A stretch of DNA of 32,000 nucleotides, from assembly GCF_000018105.1 (NCBI RefSeq), contig NC_009925.1, forward strand, positions 3,150,001-3,182,000. The letters run 5' to 3'. Shown here piece by piece: positions 19,034 to 27,545 of the stretch (its first letter is position 1; each line of letters starts with the position of its first letter). The translations under genes were made by a program, and so were the position numbers. The notes beneath the pieces were generated by a model that searched no databases, had not been told where the DNA came from, and worked only from the letters and a program-made list of their open reading frames with translations. The stretch is from Acaryochloris marina MBIC11017. Lineage in GTDB: Bacteria; Cyanobacteriota; Cyanobacteriia; Thermosynechococcales; Thermosynechococcaceae.

Positions 19034-20719
19034 ATGTCTGACAATCGAAATAGCCAAGTCGTCACTCAAGGAGTTCAACGAGCCCCCAACCGGGCCATGC
19101 TAAGGGCTGTGGGCTTTGGAGATGATGATTTTACCAAGCCGATTGTTGGGTTAGCGAATGGTTTTAGTACGATTACCCCTTGTAATATGGGCATAGACTC
19201 TCTGGCTACACGGGCAGAGGCCAGTATCAGAACGGCTGGAGCCATGCCGCAAAAGTTTGGCACCATCACTATCAGTGACGGCATTTCCATGGGCACGGAA
19301 GGGATGAAATATTCCTTGGTGTCCCGGGAAGTGATTGCAGACTCCATCGAGACGGCCTGTATGGGCCAAAGTATGGATGGAGTACTCGCCATTGGCGGCT
19401 GTGATAAAAATATGCCGGGGGCTATGCTCGCCATGGCTCGGATGAATATTCCGGCCATCTTTGTTTACGGCGGCACGATCAAACCCGGACATCTAAATGG
19501 TGAAGACTTAACCGTGGTTAGTGCCTTTGAAGCTGTGGGTCAGCATAGTGCTGGACGGATTAGTGAAGCCGAGTTAACGGCAGTGGAGAAACATGCTTGT
19601 CCGGGTGCTGGATCCTGTGGCGGTATGTATACGGCCAACACCATGTCTTCTGCGTTTGAGGCAATGGGCATGAGCCTGATGTATTCTTCCACCATGGCAG
19701 CGGAAGATGAAGAAAAAGCCGTCAGTGCAGAACAGTCTGCCGCTGTTTTAGTGGAAGCGATCCACAAGCAAATTCTGCCCCGCGATATCTTGACCCGCAA
19801 AGCCTTTGAAAATGCCATTGCTGTGATTATGGCTGTAGGCGGATCCACCAATGCCGTTCTCCACCTGTTGGCCATTTCCCGCGCGGCTGGAGACTCCCTG
19901 ACCCTAGATGACTTCGAAACCATCCGGGCTCAAGTTCCAGTGATCTGCGATCTCAAACCATCAGGTCGCTATGTAGCCACAGATCTCCATAAAGCAGGTG
20001 GAATCCCATTGGTGATGAAAATGCTATTGGAACATGGTCTTCTCCATGGTGATGCTCTGACCATTACGGGTAAAACCATTGCTGAGCAGTTGGCTGATGT
20101 CCCATCAGAGCCTTCCCCCGATCAGGATGTAATTCGGCCTTGGGACAATCCCATGTATAAACAAGGCCACCTCGCCATCCTCCGGGGTAACTTGGCCACG
20201 GAAGGAGCGGTTGCCAAAATCACAGGCATTAAAAATCCCCAAATTACGGGTCCAGCTCGGGTATTTGAATCGGAAGAGGCTTGCTTGGAGGCGATTTTGG
20301 CAGGCAAGATTCAGCCTAATGATGTGATTGTGGTGCGGTATGAAGGCCCGAAGGGTGGGCCGGGAATGCGAGAGATGTTAGCTCCCACGTCCGCGATTAT
20401 TGGGGCAGGTTTGGGTGATTCAGTTGGATTGATTACGGATGGTCGCTTTTCTGGTGGAACTTACGGCATGGTGGTTGGGCATGTGGCCCCAGAAGCTGCG
20501 GTGGGTGGTACGATTGCCCTTGTGCAGGAAGGCGATCAGATTACAATTGATGCCCATGCTCGAAAGTTGGAGCTGCATGTGTCTGATCAGGAGTTAAAAG
20601 AGCGGAAGGAGAAGTGGGAGCAACCAAAACCTCTCTATAACAAAGGGGTTTTGGCAAAGTATGCCAAGTTAGTTTCTTCTAGTAGTGTTGGAGCTGTTAC
20701 TGATTTAGATCTATTTTGA
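19034..20719 (+). CDS. ilvD: Dihydroxy-acid dehydratase
   Basis: Full-length IlvD/Edd pattern, including [11 protein letters not shown], the [16 protein letters not shown] Fe-S ligand region and TDGRFSGGT. Confidence 0.97.
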
Positions 20720-20790
20720 TCATCGTATTCTCTATCACTTATGCCTCAGCCAACGTGAATTAAGCTTCTTGATCTTAGATGATAAAAGAT

Positions 20791-22143
20791 TTAGCTTTTT
20801 TCTTCATTAGGAGGAGCACCGGCATTCCGAACATTTAAAATCCGACCTAATAAGTCAAACCAGAATGGAGCTCCCATGGCAATTGCAATAGCAGTTACTA
20901 ACCAGCCAAGTGTGGCTTTAAATAAGCCACCTTGATGGTTGATTTGTTGTGTAATTTTGGTCCAAGTAATTTTTGGTTCATTTTGCTGTGAGTCAGAAGG
21001 CTGTTCTGATGAAGACGGCTGTTCAGTCTGGATAGTTTTCGAGTTCTGTTCCGCTTCAGATAGTGGTTTCTGCTGGTTTTCTTGAGTAGGCTCTTCTTCT
21101 TTAGTAGAAGGAGAAGCTTTGTCTATTACAGATATTTTCTGATCTTTCTTAGCTTGAGATGACGGATCTGATTTTTCTGGCGGTGTATAGTTCCAACCAA
21201 GAGGTAAAGGGCCTATGGACTCAAGGATAGGATTTATTTCAGAAACAAAGTTATCAATACAGTCTAGAGAAGGGGTGTCTTGAGTGTTTTGATTGCCCTC
21301 TGATTGTTTAGAGTCACAGCGAAACAACTCTGAATTTTCTTCAATAGCTGTAGAAAGCGAGGTTGTATATTTTGTAGGTGAATGGTTTAAGCTACGCAAG
21401 ATTTGAAAAGTATCAGCATTAGCAATAACCGCGACCATAAAACCTAAAAGGAAAGATACACCTCTAGCATTACGCTTGTATACCCCTGAAGATCTTTTCT
21501 GGACACTAACAAAGATTTTCTGAATTTGCTCACTAAAATCCGCCAACGTAGCATTGCTACTTTGGATTCTTAAGGCTTCTGTAATTCTTATTAGTGACGA
21601 TATTCCTGCAATTTTTGGTTCTAAATACTGTAGCTTGTTAGTGACAATATCAACAGTATCATCATTCTTTAGATATTGGGGAGAATCTAGTTGAGATAGT
21701 TCATCTTGCAATGTATCGATTAGTGCATTTGCAAAAGTCTCAGAAGAGTCAATATATGAAGGTCCTGTAGAAAATCTAAATTTTGTGCTACGATGATTTT
21801 CTAGAAAAATACTTAGAATAAACTGCCATAATCTTCTTACATAATTTTTGTATGTTCGTTGATTCAATGATGCTATTAATGGACTTTCATATAAAAGATT
21901 AGTAAGAGATTTCTTACTTTTTTTGCTATTTTTATTTCCATCATTCTCGTCATTTTCACTAGGCATATTGTAGGCATCAACTTTATCTTCACCAAACAAT
22001 ATAAAAAGTGATGTTTTTAATCGATTTGCTCTAAATTCAAGAATCGAAGAGATTGCTTCTTGAATCTCACTGACAATTAGAGACAAAAGCAAATAAATAA
22101 AAATCAGATAGATTACAATTTGAATTATTTGAGAAAAAGACAT
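20791..22143 (-). CDS. Hypothetical 3-TM membrane protein with a Ser/Gln/Glu/Lys-rich low-complexity linker
   Basis: TM1 is IIQIVIYLIFIYLLLSLIV, followed by SEIQEAISSILEFRANRL. TM2 is VSFLLGFMVAVIANA. The C-terminus ends in LGWLVTAIAIAMGAPFWFDLLGRILNVRNAG. These terminal motifs recur in uncharacterised bacterial membrane proteins as I remember them. Confidence 0.6.
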   Translation of the reverse strand: MSFSQIIQIVIYLIFIYLLLSLIVSEIQEAISSILEFRANRLKTSLFILFGEDKVDAYNMPSENDENDGNKNSKKSKKSLTNLLYESPLIASLNQRTYKNYVRRLWQFILSIFLENHRSTKFRFSTGPSYIDSSETFANALIDTLQDELSQLDSPQYLKNDDTVDIVTNKLQYLEPKIAGISSLIRITEALRIQSSNATLADFSEQIQKIFVSVQKRSSGVYKRNARGVSFLLGFMVAVIANADTFQILRSLNHSPTKYTTSLSTAIEENSELFRCDSKQSEGNQNTQDTPSLDCIDNFVSEINPILESIGPLPLGWNYTPPEKSDPSSQAKKDQKISVIDKASPSTKEEEPTQENQQKPLSEAEQNSKTIQTEQPSSSEQPSDSQQNEPKITWTKITQQINHQGGLFKATLGWLVTAIAIAMGAPFWFDLLGRILNVRNAGAPPNEEKS

Positions 22144-22297
22144 AAATAGTATAAACGATAGAATTTTATATGATTTATTAATAGCAATTATCTATCATAA
22201 TGATCTGCATTGAAATGTAAAATACTACAAAGATATCGCTATTCCTAAACAAAACTTTCATAAAATTAGATATATAGATTTTTCTAAAAATAAGTTT

Positions 22298-22323
22298 AAA
22301 AAGCAACATATATGTTGCTTTTT
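22298..22323. terminator. Rho-independent terminator downstream of the outer-membrane protein gene
   Basis: aaaaagcaacata/tatgttgcttttt is a perfect 26-bp palindrome with A and T runs on either side. It lies 24 nt after the stop at 22347. Confidence 0.6.
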
Positions 22324-22346
22324 AACTATCAGAAGATGCTTTTTAT

Positions 22347-23627
22347 CTAGAAAGTTAAGCCTAATCCAATTGACAATTCGTTAACGTTTTGGCCAGTAAG
22401 ATCTATATCTCCTACTCTATAATTAACTAATAAATTTGCATTACCAGTATCATCAAGCCGATAAGAAAGGGTGGAAGAAAATAGATGGCTTGTTTCACCA
22501 TCTCCGGCAATATTCTGCAAAAAACTATACTCAGCTTGCAATCCTAACCGACCGAAAAATTCTGCTTCACGGTTTGCTGGGAAAAACTCGATTTCAAGTT
22601 TTGGCCCTGCTCTAAAAAGCAAGTCACCATCTACTCTATCTGTAATATTGCCAGCATCTAATACAGTTGCCAATTGAGTTTCTAAAATTGCACGCCATCT
22701 GAAACGGAGGGCATCACCGAAAATCTCTTGGGCTTGACCTAATCCAATATGCCTATTTTTTGGCTCCCATTGAAGCTGAGCTCCAAATATAGAGCTATCA
22801 AAATTAGAATCAGTTTGATATAAAAAGTTACCTCGGAAATATTGACTTGGGAAAACACTGCTACCTTGGACTTCAAAATCTGTATTGAGTGCAAAAGTTA
22901 AGATATCTTCATCGTCAAAAGCATCAGCACTGTTTTCAACTCTATCTATTTCAATGCCTGGAGTTATTTGGTATCGAGTTAAAGTCAATTTATCTGGCTC
23001 TAAATCTTCTTCATTAATTTCGGTTAGTATTGGATAAAAAAGTCCACCACGCACAGTAAAAATTGTGTTGTCAGCTTCAAAATCTCTTGTAAAGTTTAGA
23101 ATGGCGGAATCAGCTTCTTGTATTGGGGCTAAAGAGTCAAGAATAGTTACATCTTCGATATCTCTTCGTAACCTTATACCAGAACCAGCAATTCCATCTT
23201 TCTCAATACTGGGTGGAGGACCAACTATTTTACTAATGTAATCATTTGCCACCTCTAGCGTTAATTGACCATCATTTTTTTGCCTTAAGCTATTTAATTC
23301 ATCATTCGCAATTTTTAATCTATTAATTTTGACATCATTATTATTTGGATCTGAAATTTCAATGTCATCATTATTAAATGCATTCTTTATCTCTTCAAGA
23401 GTGACTATACCATCTGCTGGATCAATATCTATCTCTAAAAATGACGGATTAATTAATTTCATAACAAGCTTTTGCTGCTCATTATTTTCTTCGGAATTAT
23501 CGACTAATTGATTCCCATTTGCATCAAAATCTTCTGCCTTAATCTGTGCTTTTACTAATGTAGAAAAATTACTAAATAGTAATGTCAAAATTACAACATA
23601 TATTCTTGATTTAATATTCATATCCAT
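22347..23627 (-). CDS. Putative outer-membrane beta-barrel protein with an Asp/Asn-rich EF-hand-like N-terminal domain
   Basis: Signal peptide ends ...FSTLVKA|Q. The acidic N-domain carries DFDANGNQLVD and DIDPADGIVTLEEIKNAF. The C-terminal two-thirds have alternating-hydrophobic strands and end in GLGLTF; a terminal Phe is the OMP/BAM signature. Confidence 0.6.
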   Translation of the reverse strand: MDMNIKSRIYVVILTLLFSNFSTLVKAQIKAEDFDANGNQLVDNSEENNEQQKLVMKLINPSFLEIDIDPADGIVTLEEIKNAFNNDDIEISDPNNNDVKINRLKIANDELNSLRQKNDGQLTLEVANDYISKIVGPPPSIEKDGIAGSGIRLRRDIEDVTILDSLAPIQEADSAILNFTRDFEADNTIFTVRGGLFYPILTEINEEDLEPDKLTLTRYQITPGIEIDRVENSADAFDDEDILTFALNTDFEVQGSSVFPSQYFRGNFLYQTDSNFDSSIFGAQLQWEPKNRHIGLGQAQEIFGDALRFRWRAILETQLATVLDAGNITDRVDGDLLFRAGPKLEIEFFPANREAEFFGRLGLQAEYSFLQNIAGDGETSHLFSSTLSYRLDDTGNANLLVNYRVGDIDLTGQNVNELSIGLGLTF

Positions 23628-24019
23628 TTTTTAAATCTACTTATATAGAAATCTGAGAGCTGATTTACAAGGCACATCTTGAAGCCTCTACATCCCTAGT
23701 TTAGTAATAACTAAAGCTATGAATTTGATAGGTTTATCTCATAAATTCTTGTCTTTAGAAGATTCCAGAAACATAACGAAACAGCTCTGAGTTCGGCACA
23801 ATCTGAAACCCAATCTTTATGTATGCATATTTCAAAATTTTGCTTAACTTAAGCTTCGAATTGAAGATATAAATGGTAGTTCATACTAATTTCATATAGG
23901 ATAAACCTAGATATTTTGAAGTGAATAATTTTGCAGTGCTTTAACTACTCAATGTAAATCATTATTCAATAAATATCTCCATTTAAAATCTTCTTGAAGT
24001 CTCTATAGAAACAAAACAG

Positions 24020-24298
24020 TTATATTTTGCCCCAAATAAGTGCTGCAACTTCCGCTACTAATTCACATGCTTGATACTTAGATGGTATGATTGCAACGCC
24101 ACCTATATCAGCAAAAGGAGCGCCATCTCGGACTGAATTGAATTCGGCTGATAGGCCACTTATTGCACCTTCATCCATCCCTAAATCTTCACGCAAACGT
24201 TGCAATAGAGAGTCAGCATCAAGATGTTCTTTAACTCTGTTGTTTACTTCTGATCTACTTAAAGTATGAGATGATCTTGAGACATTATTTGACGTCAT
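24020..24298 (-). CDS. Small hypothetical protein (92 aa from the internal ATG)
   Basis: ORF 24020-24370. I prefer the ATG at 24296-24298 (MTSNNVSRS...), which is preceded by GAGGA. No family recognised, so coding status is uncertain. Confidence 0.4.
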   Translation of the reverse strand: MTSNNVSRSSHTLSRSEVNNRVKEHLDADSLLQRLREDLGMDEGAISGLSAEFNSVRDGAPFADIGGVAIIPSKYQACELVAEVAALIWGKI

Positions 24299-24400
24299 AA
24301 TTTCGCAAATCCTCGAAAAACCACTAAATCTAGCTAATAATCTAAAAATATCCAATTTAAATATTCTCACTCTTAATCAGTAGAAAAAATTATTATATTT

Positions 24401-24431
24401 TGAATATTCAAATTCACTTTTGATATTCAAA
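24401..24431. promoter_or_regulatory. Two copies of a palindromic TGAATATTCAAA-like box spaced 20 bp apart in the divergent promoter region
   Basis: tgaatattcaaa lies at 24401-24412 (tgaatattca is self-complementary) and tgatattcaaa at 24421-24431. Confidence 0.25.
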
Positions 24432-24666
24432 AAAGACTTATACAAAAGATACAAAAGTAATATCTATAAGTCAGTGCTAAAAAGTGACTACTTGTATTAA
24501 GAAAGTTTTCAATAAAGTCTTTTAATAACACATCGTTGTTTTAAAAAGTTTGATTGATATCTTCAACTTTAGATTTTGTTTGCATAATCTACTAGCCCAG
24601 GCCTGACAAGTATTACAGAAAGATGTGATCTAAATTACATCGAGCTTTGTTGGAATACTCTACTGG

Positions 24667-26181
24667 GTGCAGATAATCACGATGACTATTGAGGATGCCT
24701 TAGCTTTAATTGATACAGCCCTTGATCCTTCTTGCTTCAAGAACCTCCACCAAGATATCTTTCGCTTATCCTGGGAAGGCAAATCCTACCAAGAAATAGC
24801 TGAAACCTGCGGCTATGACACTGATTACGTCAGACATGTTGGCTATCAACTTTGGCAAAACCTCTCTCAAGCCTTGGCACAAAAAGTGACTAAAAGGAAC
24901 TTGCAAGTTGTATTCCGCCGTTTAGAACAACAAAGCCAAATCTTAAGTAATGACGTAGAAGAGATTGCCAGTCTTGTTCCCAAACCTCAACAAGCTAAAA
25001 GCAATATCAACGCTTACGTCACTAAAGTTGAACTCGTCTCAGATCAAACAACTTACCCACTCCTATGGTCTGATTCACCCAACTATCTCTATACCAAACA
25101 TAGTCAGCATTTTGTAGGTCGCCAACAGGAACAGAAAAATCTGATTCAGTGGCTAACTCGTACAGGACAAGACCAAACGCTTCCTGTTCAACTCATTAGT
25201 CTTCTAGGCATGGCAGGAATTGGCAAAACCTCCCTAGTACAACAAGTGATTCATCAGATACAAGGTCACTTTCAAAAGGTTATTTGGTGCTCCCTTCGTA
25301 ATGCTCCAACCTTTAATGAAACCTTCGCCAACATAGTCAATACTGATGAGCAAGAAGCCCTACAATGGCCTACTTATATTGATGCTCAAATTGAAATTCT
25401 GATGCGCTATTTCTGCCAGCATCGGTGCTTATTGGTTTTAGATAACTTTGAAACCATCTTGCAACCTGGTCAAATGGGAGGACATTATCGCTCTAATCAT
25501 CAAGCCTATGGCCAACTCCTCAGGCATTTGATGGATTCCCCTCATCAAAGTTGTGTTCTACTCACCAGTCGAGAACAACCTATTGGCATTAACTTACGCA
25601 ATCAACCCACCGTGCAAACCCTTTACTTACACGGACTGTCACCTTCAGAAACCCACCTCCTCTTGAACCATCAGGAGGTCAAGACAACCCAAACCGACGC
25701 TGAAAACTTAAACGCTTATTATGGGGGCAATCCCTATGCACTTAAAGTCGCAGCGACCAATGTTACATCTTTATTTCACCGCCAAGTTGCTGAATGGATA
25801 AAACAAGGCAACTTTGTATTTGGAACCATTCAGCAACTCTTAAAACAACAGCTCCAACGACTAGCGCCTCCCGAGCAGGAGATCGTTAACTTTATTGCTG
25901 CAGAAACAGGCAACGTCACCCTAGATCGACTGCATACAGCATTAGTTCTCAAAGATCTCGTTTCAACTACCGATCTTTTACCTGCATTGCAATCTCTTCA
26001 GAGTCGTTCTTTACTCTGTAACCAAGAAGATGGTCTACAACTATTGCCGTATCTCCGTGAATATTTGCGTTGTTACCAGACCTCTATTGGTGCAAAGCAT
26101 AGAGCCAGTACACCCGAAGTATTGACGAGTTTTCAGCCTGCAGCGCTTCTCTCTACTTCTCTGCCCTTAGCTCATGGCTAG
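24667..26181 (+). CDS. STAND-class P-loop NTPase (NB-ARC/NACHT-like) with an N-terminal HTH-like module and no C-terminal sensor repeats
   Basis: The N-terminal block (EDALALIDTAL....L.....FRLSWEGKSYQEIAETCGYDTDYVRHVGYQLWQNLSQALAQKVTKRNLQVVFRR) is the module found at the N-terminus of many cyanobacterial NB-ARC/WD40 proteins. Walker A is GMAGIGKTS at nt 25207-25233. Walker B is LLVLDNFE at nt 25429-25452. The likely start is the ATG at 24682. The gene ends 15 nt inside the convergent thioesterase gene. Confidence 0.8.
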   Translation: MQIITMTIEDALALIDTALDPSCFKNLHQDIFRLSWEGKSYQEIAETCGYDTDYVRHVGYQLWQNLSQALAQKVTKRNLQVVFRRLEQQSQILSNDVEEIASLVPKPQQAKSNINAYVTKVELVSDQTTYPLLWSDSPNYLYTKHSQHFVGRQQEQKNLIQWLTRTGQDQTLPVQLISLLGMAGIGKTSLVQQVIHQIQGHFQKVIWCSLRNAPTFNETFANIVNTDEQEALQWPTYIDAQIEILMRYFCQHRCLLVLDNFETILQPGQMGGHYRSNHQAYGQLLRHLMDSPHQSCVLLTSREQPIGINLRNQPTVQTLYLHGLSPSETHLLLNHQEVKTTQTDAENLNAYYGGNPYALKVAATNVTSLFHRQVAEWIKQGNFVFGTIQQLLKQQLQRLAPPEQEIVNFIAAETGNVTLDRLHTALVLKDLVSTTDLLPALQSLQSRSLLCNQEDGLQLLPYLREYLRCYQTSIGAKHRASTPEVLTSFQPAALLSTSLPLAHG

Positions 26182-26580
26182 ACTCCATCGCTGAATCCAG
26201 GTCACCAATTCTTTTGGTAGGGGCTGGCGTTGCCGATTAATGGGATTAATACATACATGCCGAATCGTCGCCTTGGCAATCAGACGTTCCCCTTTATTCA
26301 CCGCTGTAATGTTGTAGCGAACTTCAAATTCATCTTCAGCGAGTTGGTGAGTACTCAGTTGAAGGGTTAACTGATCGCCACAAAAACTGGGCTTGAGAAA
26401 ATCAATATCGGCATGGATGATTGGCGTTGCCGTATCTGGGTTGCTAAAGAATGTACGAATATCAATCCCCGCTCCCATCAGAGAATCTTCAAAGGCTTCA
26501 TGACAGATATCAAGGGCGCTGGTGAAATAGACTACCCCCGCAGCATCAGTATCTTGGAGACGAACGGTACGTGTGTACAT
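26167..26580 (-). CDS. 4HBT-fold thioesterase, cyanobacterial 1,4-dihydroxy-2-naphthoyl-CoA hydrolase type (phylloquinone pathway)
   Basis: MYTRTVRLQDTDAAGVVYFTSALDICHEAFE... resembles the Synechocystis DHNA-CoA thioesterase family. I prefer the ATG at 26578-26580. The longer ORF to 26703 would overlap the upstream gene. Confidence 0.75.
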   Translation of the reverse strand: MYTRTVRLQDTDAAGVVYFTSALDICHEAFEDSLMGAGIDIRTFFSNPDTATPIIHADIDFLKPSFCGDQLTLQLSTHQLAEDEFEVRYNITAVNKGERLIAKATIRHVCINPINRQRQPLPKELVTWIQRWSLAMS

Positions 26581-26675
26581 GGGCCACTGTATAAAACTGA
26601 ATATTAAGAGGATAGACACAGATGGTCCCCTCTTGATCAGTGCATATTTTCTGGCAAAGAAAGAGAATTTAGATA

Positions 26676-27545
26676 TTAGCCTTCTTTCAGCAAATAGGCG
26701 CACCCTGCCCCCATCATCTCAGCCCCAACATTGATAAACCGATAAATCGCGACTGCTGTTAACAACAACCCAGGAGACAGATAGGGGTGCAAGATATCAA
26801 TAGCGGATGCTTCAAAGACACCCATACCTGCTGGAGTAGGTATCACTAAGCTCAGTAGCCAAGCCATGCTAAAACCACTCATCAATGGACTAAGTGCTGA
26901 CCAATTAATCGGTGTAAAGGCCAAGACAATCAGGATAAAAATTAGCCCTCGTAGCACCATAAACAAGATGGCTCCCAGTAGAACTCGCAGCGGATAGTAT
27001 TGCATCTTGACACTACTCACTTGCTTGCCCTTGAGCTTACGAACCTGCTGCCACAAAAAATTGAGAACTCGGGGATGGAGGATCAGCAAAATCACGCCGA
27101 GCAATGCGCTTAGCCAAAGGCCGTAGGACGTATTCCACAATGCCAGTCCGATGGCGGCCGCAATGACGAAGAGTGGCTCCAGTAAAACACTTAAGGTTGC
27201 TAACTCTAGCCCTAAACCTTTTTTCTGGGCAGCTTTGACCTGACCATATAAATGCCACACACTACCTGGAATATATTTAGCGGGAGTATGTCTTAAGAAG
27301 GTGATGATGGCCCATCGTTTAGGGAGTGGATGTTTAAAGGCGGCTAAAATCCAGCACCACAATATACCTAACCAGAGTTGTGCGAAGAGTGCGATCGCAA
27401 ATGCAGCACCCCCATATAACCAGGCCTGTTGCTGTAGTTCCAGGGCTTTGACATCCTGCCAATGATTGAGCAACGTCTTGATCAGGAAAATAAGGGTTGC
27501 ACCCAATATTCCCCAGCGAACAAAAAACTTGAAGTACCGATGCAT
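26676..27545 (-). CDS. Polytopic membrane protein, UPF0104 / LPG-synthase-TM (flippase-like) family candidate
   Basis: About 8 TM segments plus the KYIPGSVW motif. The family call is from memory and is moderate. Confidence 0.5.
   Translation of the reverse strand: MHRYFKFFVRWGILGATLIFLIKTLLNHWQDVKALELQQQAWLYGGAAFAIALFAQLWLGILWCWILAAFKHPLPKRWAIITFLRHTPAKYIPGSVWHLYGQVKAAQKKGLGLELATLSVLLEPLFVIAAAIGLALWNTSYGLWLSALLGVILLILHPRVLNFLWQQVRKLKGKQVSSVKMQYYPLRVLLGAILFMVLRGLIFILIVLAFTPINWSALSPLMSGFSMAWLLSLVIPTPAGMGVFEASAIDILHPYLSPGLLLTAVAIYRFINVGAEMMGAGCAYLLKEG

What the first reader, a model, noticed from the sequence alone, without database searches (positions are those of the whole stretch)
24020..26181. 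Sensor-less HTH-NB-ARC STAND NTPase paired divergently with a small orphan ORF; the 3' end looks truncated
In cyanobacteria, proteins with this N-terminal module (FRLSWEGKSYQEIAE..GYD..YVR.VGY.LW) and an NB-ARC core normally continue into long WD40 or TPR arrays. This one stops at 504 aa. Its last ~30 residues (IGAKHRASTPEVLTSFQPAALLSTSLPLAHG) look unstructured. Its final 15 nt overlap the convergent thioesterase gene. Either it is a minimal switch that uses a separate partner, or it is a gene whose sensor repeats were lost at the island boundary. The 92-aa ORF 300 bp upstream on the other strand is the obvious candidate partner.
Basis: partly seen in the sequence, partly recalled or inferred. 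Interest (0 to 1): 0.62.

Follow-up and report, generated by a model that had tools for sequence, protein, structure and literature searches.

The report
Intact short HTH–NB-ARC switch protein
This Acaryochloris marina gene is not a broken sensor protein: it is an intact member of a widespread cyanobacterial family of short ATP-switch proteins with a DNA-binding head, and the small ORF upstream is strain-specific island cargo, not its partner.

Summary
The ORF is real: 24667-26181 on the + strand, with the likely start at ATG 24682 (499 aa). It has an N-terminal sigma-r4/LuxR-like HTH (Pfam HTH_VMAP-M9), a disordered linker, a complete NB-ARC module (NBD-HD1-WHD) and a disordered 32-residue tail. 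Its last 15 nt overlap a convergent thioesterase gene.

The truncation idea is refuted.
- About 27 Acaryochloris-lineage orthologues (67-93% identity, 473-526 aa) end the same way.
- They sit at the same syntenic site, and dN/dS is 0.16.
- Dozens of more distant cyanobacterial homologues (430-530 aa) stop just after the winged helix.
- On a neighbour-joining tree, short forms make up deep clades of their own.

Long HTH-NB-ARC-WD40 forms (about 1200 aa) also exist, including two on A. marina plasmids.

The pairing idea also fails.
- The 92-aa ORF has only identical copies in the databases.
- It lies inside a hypervariable low-GC hotspot (20714-24579) whose cargo differs in all five lineages examined.
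- It resembles a single repeat unit of phage-tail-fibre-like giant proteins.

Most likely function (inferred, not shown): a sensor-less STAND-class transcription regulator, analogous but not homologous to XssQ, that receives its signal from another molecule. No conserved neighbouring gene was found. This is an ordinary, uncharacterised member of a known architecture.

The parts
24682..26181 (+). CDS of the HTH-NB-ARC STAND protein (499 aa; an in-frame GTG at 24667 would give 504 aa)
   Evidence: public gene calls and homologue N-termini start at MTIEDAL
24682..24945 (+). N-terminal helical HTH domain, residues 1-88 (Pfam HTH_VMAP-M9; sigma70 region 4 / LuxR-GerE-like fold)
   Evidence: PF26355 in the precomputed annotation. 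Weak Sigma70_r4_2 hit. AF2 pLDDT about 90. Top Foldseek matches are ECF sigma region 4, GerE, NarL and DesR, with prob 0.9-1.0 but E only 0.2-1
24946..25104 (+). Disordered, fast-evolving linker, residues 89-141
   Evidence: pLDDT 23-34; 75% pairwise identity against 89% in the folded domains
25105..26082 (+). NB-ARC module (NBD-HD1-WHD), residues 142-467
   Evidence: Pfam NB-ARC. Foldseek top hits are plant NLR resistosomes and Dark. Profile search of PDB sequences hits Sr35, ZAR1, NRC, PH0952 and AfsR
25207..25230 (+).
   Evidence: G176, G179, G181 and K182 are invariant in 55 homologues
25423..25452 (+). Walker B region RCLLVLDNFE (D254, N255, E257)
   Evidence: D254 invariant; N255 and E257 conserved in at least 90%
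26083..26181 (+). Disordered C-terminal tail, residues 468-499, plus the stop codon. It is specific to the Acaryochloris lineage and keeps a short motif [ST][TA]P..[LI]...QP
   Evidence: pLDDT about 30. A tail is present in all 27 lineage members, with 75% identity among the close ones. Homology to the long-form paralogue ends at residue 462
26167..26619 (-). Convergent 4HBT_2 / YbgC-like thioesterase gene, overlapping the NB-ARC 3' end by 15 nt
   Evidence: The convergent overlap is conserved in L003, L097, L098 (15 nt) and L085 (38 nt)
24624..24639 (.). Conserved palindrome TGTGATCTAAATTACA, 43-58 nt before the ATG. It is a candidate operator; the protein that binds it is unknown
   Evidence: Invariant block in a five-lineage alignment. 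It occurs once upstream of every Acaryochloris-lineage orthologue and in none of 91 other loci
24580..24588 (+). Conserved TTGCATAAT block (possible -10-like element). It marks the first base of the conserved backbone to the right of the hotspot
20714..24579 (.). Context, not part of the gene: a hypervariable low-GC (33%) hotspot between ilvD and the NB-ARC gene. In this strain it holds ORFs of 450, 426 and 92 aa
24020..24298 (-). 92-aa orphan ORF. It is island cargo, not a partner, and resembles a single unit of a tail-fibre-like repeat

Best explanation
The gene encodes an intact, vertically inherited member of a widespread cyanobacterial family of short (about 430-530 aa) HTH-NB-ARC proteins. 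The family has a sigma-r4/LuxR-like DNA-binding head, a flexible linker and a complete NBD-HD1-WHD nucleotide switch, and it ends right after the winged helix. Proposed mechanism (inferred): as in other STAND-class regulators (MalT, AfsR, GutR, XssQ), exchange of ADP for ATP in the NB-ARC module drives oligomerisation. Oligomerisation brings several HTH heads together on promoter DNA and so changes transcription. Because there is no built-in repeat sensor, the activating signal must reach the NB-ARC core, the linker or the tail from another molecule. Candidates are a protein such as a response regulator or a long-form WD40 paralogue, or a small ligand. The upstream 92-aa ORF is unrelated cargo of a neighbouring hypervariable hotspot.
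For: Shown here:
- The NB-ARC motifs are complete and conserved: Walker A, Walker B DNxE, TSRE and GNPxALK.
- The predicted fold matches NB-ARC structures.
- The N-terminal fold matches sigma region 4, GerE and NarL DNA-binding domains.
- About 27 orthologues of 473-526 aa carry a comparable C-terminal tail.
- Genus-wide synteny is ilvD - hotspot - NB-ARC, then the convergent thioesterase.
- dN/dS is 0.16 against strain MBIC10699.
- Distant homologues end 5-20 residues after the WHD, and short-only clades are deep on the NJ tree.
- Complete genomes also carry short forms: Gloeocapsa PCC 7428 (471 aa) and Gloeocapsopsis dulcis (459 aa).

Precedent from the literature: XssQ, an N-terminal-HTH STAND protein of Synechocystis, binds DNA in EMSA and activates xss genes downstream of the XssS/XssR two-component pair (PMC8205485). 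Sigma70_r4_2 + NB-ARC (+ WD40) architectures are catalogued in cyanobacteria (PMC11119718).

Suggestive contexts: two short homologues flank a response regulator / hybrid kinase cluster. Two independent clades sit next to polysaccharide gene clusters. A conserved palindrome lies upstream of the gene itself.
Against: - DNA binding and transcriptional output are not demonstrated for any member of this family.
- Foldseek E-values for the HTH domain are weak (0.2-1.3), and the Pfam Sigma70_r4_2 hit is below threshold.
- The HTH domain family is named after VMAP proteins of vWA-MoxR conflict systems. There the variable middle regions were proposed to be invader sensors, not DNA binders (PMC7159879).
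- No target genes or partner can be named. Neighbours are heterogeneous, and in Acaryochloris none of them relates to polysaccharide synthesis or two-component signalling.
- XssQ shares only P-loop-level similarity with this protein, so it is an analogy.
- The MHD histidine of classical NB-ARC proteins is absent.
Confidence: 0.55

Rival explanations
1. It is an NLR-like conflict or immunity STAND protein. The HTH_VMAP-M9 head would act as an adaptor, sensor or effector rather than a promoter-binding domain. The protein would work together with long-form WD40 paralogues (a helper/sensor arrangement) or with the adjacent variable cargo.
For: - The domain family is shared with VMAP proteins of vWA-MoxR conflict systems.
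- The NB-ARC fold is closest to plant resistosome NLRs.
- The gene abuts a hypervariable hotspot, and its alleles diverge faster than ilvD or the thioesterase.
- The same species carries long HTH-NB-ARC-WD40 paralogues on conjugative plasmids.
Against: - PADLOC gives no meaningful defence-family hit.
- No vWA, MoxR, protease, nuclease or TIR effector is linked to it.
- The gene is single-copy, syntenic and under purifying selection rather than diversifying selection.
- Its divergence is similar to that of other non-core neighbours, namely the signal peptidase and the NOX-like gene.
- The mismatch gradient on both sides of the hotspot fits hitch-hiking with recombination at the hotspot.
Confidence: 0.2
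2. It is a 3'-truncated relic of a long HTH-NB-ARC-WD40 gene, whose repeats were lost when the neighbouring region was rearranged.
For: - Long ~1200-aa forms with the same head and core are common and exist in the same species.
- The tail is disordered and overlaps the next gene.
Against: - Orthologues down to 67% identity have the same length, a comparable tail and the same convergent overlap.
- dN/dS is 0.16.
- The sister lineages are also short.
- The variable boundary is upstream of the gene, not at its 3' end.
- An ancient domain loss or gain at the root of the short clades cannot be polarised. Either way it would not make this gene a relic.
Confidence: 0.03
3. It forms a two-gene system with the divergently transcribed 92-aa ORF.
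For: - The two are adjacent and divergently oriented, 369-384 bp apart.
- The ORF looks coding: GC1 > GC2 > GC3, and an ORF this long arises in only 1.75% of shuffles.
Against: - Only identical copies exist among 5.8 billion clusters and 1.84 billion representatives.
- The ORF is absent, by tblastn, from four orthologous loci that carry unrelated upstream ORFs.
- It lies inside the variable island, whereas the NB-ARC gene lies in the conserved backbone.
Confidence: 0.02

Closest known systems
Cyanobacterial HTH(sigma r4-like)-NB-ARC-WD40 proteins of about 1200 aa, e.g. A. marina pREC3 WP_261892137.1 and Synechocystis pSYSX 'WD40 repeat domain-containing protein'
   Same: They have the same HTH_VMAP-M9 head, the same conserved linker motif before the P-loop, and the same NB-ARC core. 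Identity is 32% over residues 34-462.
   Different: They continue into an ~100-aa spacer and 12 or more WD40 repeats. The window protein stops after the WHD and has only a 32-residue disordered tail.
XssQ (slr5058) of Synechocystis sp. PCC 6803, the STAND transcription activator of synechan genes (PMC8205485)
   Same: It has an N-terminal HTH fused to a STAND NTPase in a cyanobacterium. It is an experimentally shown DNA-binding activator that is controlled from outside by a two-component pair.
   Different: XssQ is 783 aa, with an Xre-like HTH, a NACHT core and a C-terminal NCH2 helical domain. Only P-loop-level similarity to the window protein was found, E 3e-4 over 93 residues. It is an analogue, not an orthologue.
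STAND-class bacterial transcription regulators: AfsR/SARP, MalT, GutR and the LAL family (own knowledge; AfsR structures 8k60 and 8jke were hit)
   Same: They combine a DNA-binding domain with an NB-ARC/NOD ATP switch, and ATP-dependent oligomerisation controls promoter binding.
   Different: They all carry a TPR/SUPR sensor domain. Their DNA-binding domains differ (OmpR-type wHTH plus BTAD in AfsR) or sit elsewhere (C-terminal LuxR in MalT).
Plant NLR / Apaf-1 / Dark NB-ARC modules
   Same: These are the best structural and profile matches for residues 142-467. The Walker A, sensor-I-like TSRE and GxP motifs are conserved.
   Different: The window protein has no LRR or WD40 sensor, no CC, TIR or CARD effector, and no MHD histidine. 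Its Walker B is DNxE instead of DD/DE.
VMAP-M9 region of vWA-MoxR-associated proteins (Kaur et al. 2020, PMC7159879)
   Same: It shares the Pfam family PF26355 with the N-terminal domain.
   Different: No vWA, MoxR or VMAP-N/C components lie nearby. The architecture here is head + NB-ARC, not a VMAP.

Membership tests
NB-ARC / AP-ATPase clade of STAND NTPases | Walker A GxxGxGK[ST] | tested here: met
   GMAGIGKT, residues 176-183; invariant in 55 homologues. Pfam NB-ARC E 1.5e-13.
NB-ARC / AP-ATPase clade of STAND NTPases | Walker B hhhhDD/DE followed by the RNBS-B / sensor-I arginine | tested here: met
   LLVLDNFE (D254 invariant; the second acidic residue is replaced by N, with E at +3) and TSRE with R297 conserved in at least 90%. 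The DN variant is family-wide, including the long forms (pattern used).
NB-ARC / AP-ATPase clade of STAND NTPases | HD1 GxP motif and a winged-helix domain following the NBD | tested here: met
   GGNPYALK with N350 and P351 invariant. The AF2 model has helices plus a beta hairpin at 429-473, and Foldseek aligns about 350 columns to resistosome NB-ARC at rmsd 4-5 A.
NB-ARC / AP-ATPase clade of STAND NTPases | MHD motif histidine in the WHD | tested here: not met
   The equivalent stretch is LQLLPYLREY (family consensus FTQQPxIxEY), with no conserved His.
NB-ARC / AP-ATPase clade of STAND NTPases | C-terminal repeat sensor (WD40/TPR/LRR), typical of the clade but not strictly defining | tested here: not met
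   No repeat domain by Pfam or NCBIfam. The protein ends 32 disordered residues after the WHD.
HTH_VMAP-M9 (PF26355) | Match to the Pfam model | tested here: met
   The precomputed hit is listed for this exact 499-aa protein and for nearly all homologues. The model is absent from the local Pfam copy, so no score could be recomputed.
Sigma70 region 4 / LuxR-GerE tetrahelical HTH (DNA-binding) | Fold and sequence similarity to solved DNA-binding domains | tested here: inconclusive
   Nearly all of the top 50 Foldseek hits are sigma region 4, GerE, NarL, DesR, SdiA, VpsT or other HTH transcription regulators. TM is about 0.5 and prob up to 1.0, but E is 0.18-1.3. Pfam Sigma70_r4_2 scores E 0.004, 17 bits, below the 25.7-bit cutoff.
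Sigma70 region 4 / LuxR-GerE tetrahelical HTH (DNA-binding) | Sequence-specific DNA binding | not testable with these tools
   This needs EMSA, DAP-seq or ChIP.
XssQ-type STAND activator | NACHT core plus NCH2 C-terminal domain plus Xre-like HTH, linked to XssR/XssS | tested here: not met
   BLASTP finds only the P-loop region, E 3e-4. XssQ's Pfam domains are NACHT and NCH2. No response regulator or histidine kinase lies next to the window gene.
Known anti-phage STAND systems (Avs and others in PADLOC v2) | Match to a defence-system protein model and a linked effector | tested here: not met
   Only marginal hits: DolB E 5e-5 at 20.7 bits, and PDC-S27 E 6e-4 at 16.7 bits. No effector domain is present in the protein or its neighbours.
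vWA-MoxR-VMAP ternary conflict system | Neighbouring vWA and MoxR genes | tested here: not met
   None in the window or in four orthologous loci.

The most novel reading that the evidence does not exclude
Short HTH-NB-ARC proteins may be a distinct class of sensor-less STAND switches that are activated by another protein. One route would be a phosphorylated response regulator, as XssR acts on XssQ. Another would be co-oligomerisation with long HTH-NB-ARC-WD40 paralogues encoded in the same genome. The second route would be a bacterial counterpart of plant sensor/helper NLR networks, but with transcription as the output. The genus-conserved motif in the disordered tail and the palindrome upstream of the gene would then be the docking site and the autoregulatory site.
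Probability: 0.15. Interest if true: 0.6.

Novelty: new member of a known kind. Interest (0 to 1): 0.25.

Why it matters
The result removes a false lead: this is neither a truncation nor a two-gene system. It also shows that sensor-less HTH-NB-ARC proteins are a stable and widespread cyanobacterial architecture, not assembly or decay artefacts. If they are indeed transcription factors, they are a minimal model for asking how a STAND switch is triggered without a repeat sensor. None has been characterised. The adjacent ilvD/NB-ARC hotspot is a convenient marker of strain-level gene flux in Acaryochloris.

Tried and rejected
- Exact look-up of the 504-aa GTG-start product found nothing. The 499-aa ATG-start product is the one on record.
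- The XssQ lead: I fetched slr5058 from pSYSM and compared it. It has only P-loop similarity and a different core (NACHT/NCH2), so I kept it as an analogue only.
- PADLOC scan of the NB-ARC protein, the island ORFs and the downstream neighbours: nothing meaningful.
- Rfam scan of 20000-27000 at E <= 0.1: no RNA family.
- Promoter/terminator scan of 23600-26800: fewer promoter-like sites than in shuffles, and no terminator between the convergent genes. Uninformative.
- Search for a conserved neighbour of short forms: I used eight Pfam-annotated contexts plus a Pfam scan of 33 neighbours from six GTDB loci. Only ubiquitous TPR/CHAT proteins recur. Polysaccharide clusters appear in two independent clades, which I treat as a lead and not a finding.
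- Literature search for 'VMAP-M9' returned no paper. The VMAP-M0-28 definition came from Kaur et al. 2020.
I obtained orthologous loci through exact-protein look-ups instead.
Full report
**Observation**

The window is Acaryochloris marina. The 92-aa ORF product is recorded on a 6,503,724-bp contig and named as an A. marina protein, and the best NB-ARC hits are A. marina proteins.

The ORF 24667-26181 (+) exists, 504 aa from GTG. Public gene calls and the N-termini of homologues place the start at ATG 24682, giving 499 aa. I number from that start.

- Pfam finds NB-ARC at residues 153-341, E 1.5e-13, plus weaker NACHT and nSTAND1 hits.
- The precomputed annotation of this exact protein adds PF26355 HTH_VMAP-M9 at the N-terminus.
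- The final 15 nt overlap the stop-proximal end of a convergent 4HBT_2 thioesterase gene...SLPLAHG* against ...WSLAMS*.
- The 92-aa ORF is 24020-24298 (-), 369-384 bp upstream of the NB-ARC start.

**Anatomy**

AlphaFold2 with a 55-sequence alignment gives mean pLDDT 77.7.
- A confident five-helix head covers residues 1-88.
- The linker (89-141) is disordered, pLDDT 23-34.
- The NBD-HD1-WHD core (142-467) is confident.
- The tail (468-499) is disordered, pLDDT about 30.

The whole model matches plant NLR resistosomes (Sr35, NRC4, ZAR1, Roq1, RPP1) and Dark at Foldseek E about 1e-11. The alignment profile hits the same proteins in PDB sequences, plus PH0952 and AfsR.

A separate model of the head (pLDDT 83.5) matches ECF-sigma region 4, GerE, NarL, DesR, SdiA and VpsT. 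These hits have high probability but weak E-values, 0.18-1.3. A sub-threshold Pfam Sigma70_r4_2 hit agrees.

Conserved motifs across 55 homologues are Walker A GMAGIGKT (K182), Walker B LLVLDNxE, TSRE and GNPxALK. The classical MHD histidine is absent.

**Truncation is refuted**

- The protein search returned 235 homologues.
- The 27 closest (67-93% identity, Acaryochloris lineage) are 473-526 aa, and each carries a C-terminal tail after the WHD that aligns with this one.
- The next tier (32-41% identity, many cyanobacterial orders) is mostly 430-530 aa. In the alignment these proteins end 5-20 residues after the conserved WHD stretch FTQQPxIxEY.
- Several short forms come from complete genomes, for example Gloeocapsa PCC 7428 (471 aa) and Gloeocapsopsis dulcis (459 aa).
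- Long forms are also real. In GTDB representative genomes most hits with the same head are 1150-1260 aa.
- A. marina MBIC10699 plasmids pREC3 and pREC1 encode NB-ARC paralogues of 1215 and 1292 aa with 12 or more WD40 repeats. The pREC3 protein also aligns to part of the HTH head. Its homology to the window protein runs from residue 34 to residue 462, about nt 26067.
- On a rough neighbour-joining tree the Acaryochloris clade, its sisters (P0028-30, L023, L032) and several other large clades contain only short proteins. Long forms cluster elsewhere, with only a few short ones among them.

The short architecture is therefore old and stable.

**Synteny and selection**

Five Acaryochloris-lineage loci were compared: the window, MBIC10699 (L003), 'Moss Beach' (L097), L098 and L085. 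NB-ARC protein identity to the window falls to 67% across these loci. All five share the order signal peptidase - ilvD - [variable segment] - NB-ARC, followed by the convergent thioesterase.

Against MBIC10699, homology stops at 20713 and resumes at 24580. Against L085 it resumes at 24578. The island boundary is therefore about 100 bp upstream of the start codon, not at the 3' end.

The NB-ARC alleles of the two strains differ at 7.3% of nucleotides, with dN/dS 0.16. The four genes downstream are 100% identical. Mismatches decay with distance from the hotspot on both sides, and the last one is at 26026. This pattern fits recombination at the hotspot carrying flanking sequence with it. Over longer distances the gene evolves faster than ilvD or the thioesterase, but about as fast as the signal peptidase and the NOX-like gene.

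The tail evolves like the linker (75% pairwise identity, against 89% for folded parts). It nevertheless keeps a short motif, [ST][TA]P..[LI]...QP, across the lineage. It is a conserved disordered extension, not read-through junk.

**The 92-aa ORF is not a partner**

- The word-indexed search found only an identical sequence.
- An exhaustive phmmer search of 1.84 billion representatives found only weak matches (E 2e-8 to 2e-4). These were to repeated units of four giant proteins (930-2256 aa), one of which has an Mtd_N tail-fibre N-terminus. The shared motif is G..AEFNS...DG.FA.
- The ORF lies in the 33%-GC variable segment 20714-24579.
- The orthologous segments in the other four lineages carry different genes. 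These include a transposase, a secreted 250-280-aa protein with a 47-52-aa companion, DUF1350, a trypsin-like protein and a CpXC protein. None matches the 92-aa ORF by tblastn.
- The ORF probably is, or was, coding. Only 1.75% of shuffles give an ORF this long, and GC1 > GC2 > GC3. It is still strain-specific cargo.

**What it most likely does**

No partner gene is conserved next to the short forms. Eight Pfam-annotated contexts and 33 neighbours from six further loci share nothing beyond ubiquitous TPR/CHAT proteins.

Two leads are worth noting.
- One locus has two short HTH-NB-ARC genes flanking a GerE-type response regulator, a dCache hybrid kinase and another response regulator.
- Two independent clades sit beside polysaccharide gene clusters.

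These echo XssQ, the Synechocystis N-terminal-HTH STAND protein. XssQ binds a defined motif in EMSA and activates synechan genes downstream of XssS/XssR (PMC8205485). However, XssQ has a NACHT core, an NCH2 domain and an Xre-like HTH. It shares only P-loop similarity with the window protein, so it is an analogue and not a relative.

Sigma70_r4_2 + NB-ARC (+ WD40) architectures have been catalogued among cyanobacterial sigma-like proteins (PMC11119718). The head's Pfam family derives from the variable middle regions of vWA-MoxR-associated proteins (PMC7159879). No vWA or MoxR genes are nearby, and PADLOC finds nothing.

I therefore favour an ATP-switched, oligomerising transcription regulator that receives its signal from another molecule (confidence 0.55). 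DNA binding, the signal and the targets are all inferred. An NLR-like conflict role remains possible (0.2).

**Also noticed**

A 16-nt palindrome, TGTGATCTAAATTACA (24624-24639), lies 43-58 nt before the ATG. It is invariant in its half-sites across all five lineages. It occurs once upstream of every orthologue and in none of 91 other fetched loci. Its TGTR-N8-TACA form resembles CRP/NtcA-family sites (my own knowledge). It is a candidate operator for this gene, and the binding protein is unknown.

**Verdict**

The truncation and pairing interpretations are wrong. The 'minimal switch' reading is right about the architecture. The gene is an ordinary, annotated but uncharacterised member of a known domain architecture. 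Interest is low to moderate.

Noticed in passing
window 20714-24579 (and L003 3103-7898, L085 4410-6893, L097 2306-7900, L098 3429-7900): A hypervariable low-GC hotspot lies between ilvD and the NB-ARC gene. Five Acaryochloris-lineage genomes carry five different cargos, almost all on the minus strand. Two modules are shared between some lineages: a mutator-family transposase, and a secreted 250-280-aa protein with a 47-52-aa companion. Mismatches against strain MBIC10699 decay away from the hotspot on both sides, and the flanks beyond it are 100% identical.
   Followed up: partly
window 24624-24639: The palindrome TGTGATCTAAATTACA lies 43-58 nt upstream of the NB-ARC start. It is conserved in every Acaryochloris-lineage orthologous locus and absent from 91 other loci. 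It resembles a CRP/NtcA-type site (TGTR-N8-TACA), and the binding protein is unknown. A second conserved block, TTGCATAAT (24580-24588), marks the start of the conserved backbone.
   Followed up: partly
window 24020-24298 (-): The 92-aa orphan ORF resembles a single unit of a repeat (G..AEFNS...DG.FA) found 4-6 times in giant proteins of 930-2256 aa. One of those proteins has a phage Mtd_N tail-fibre N-terminus. The ORF may be a relic or a domesticated fragment of such a protein.
   Followed up: partly
window 20791-22143 (-) and 22347-23627 (-): Two island ORFs have no significant Pfam or NCBIfam match and at most a marginal PADLOC hit. The 450-aa protein has hydrophobic segments at both ends and a Ser/Gln/Pro-rich middle. 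The 426-aa protein has a signal-peptide-like N-terminus and ends in a C-terminal Phe, like an outer-membrane beta-barrel. Both have about 35% GC.
   Followed up: no
window 26083-26181 (protein residues 468-499): The disordered C-terminal tail keeps a short linear motif, [ST][TA]P..[LI]...QP, across the genus, down to orthologues of 67% identity. This suggests a docking or degradation signal.
   Followed up: partly
L095 60-7368: Two short HTH-NB-ARC paralogues (459 and 455 aa) flank a GerE-type response regulator, a dCache hybrid histidine kinase and a second response regulator. The arrangement recalls XssS/XssR/XssQ.
   Followed up: no
L089 4667-7001 (Gloeocapsa sp. PCC 7428): A 2.3-kb stretch with no called gene lies upstream of the short HTH-NB-ARC gene. 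The gene sits between murT/gatD and a glycosyltransferase-rich polysaccharide cluster, and the same synteny is seen in L094.
   Followed up: no
L099 3890-7537 and L100 3566-7444 (A. marina MBIC10699 plasmids pREC3 and pREC1): Long-form NB-ARC-WD40 paralogues of 1215 and 1292 aa lie on conjugative plasmids of the same species. The pREC3 protein also aligns to part of the HTH head. They coexist with the chromosomal short form.
   Followed up: partly
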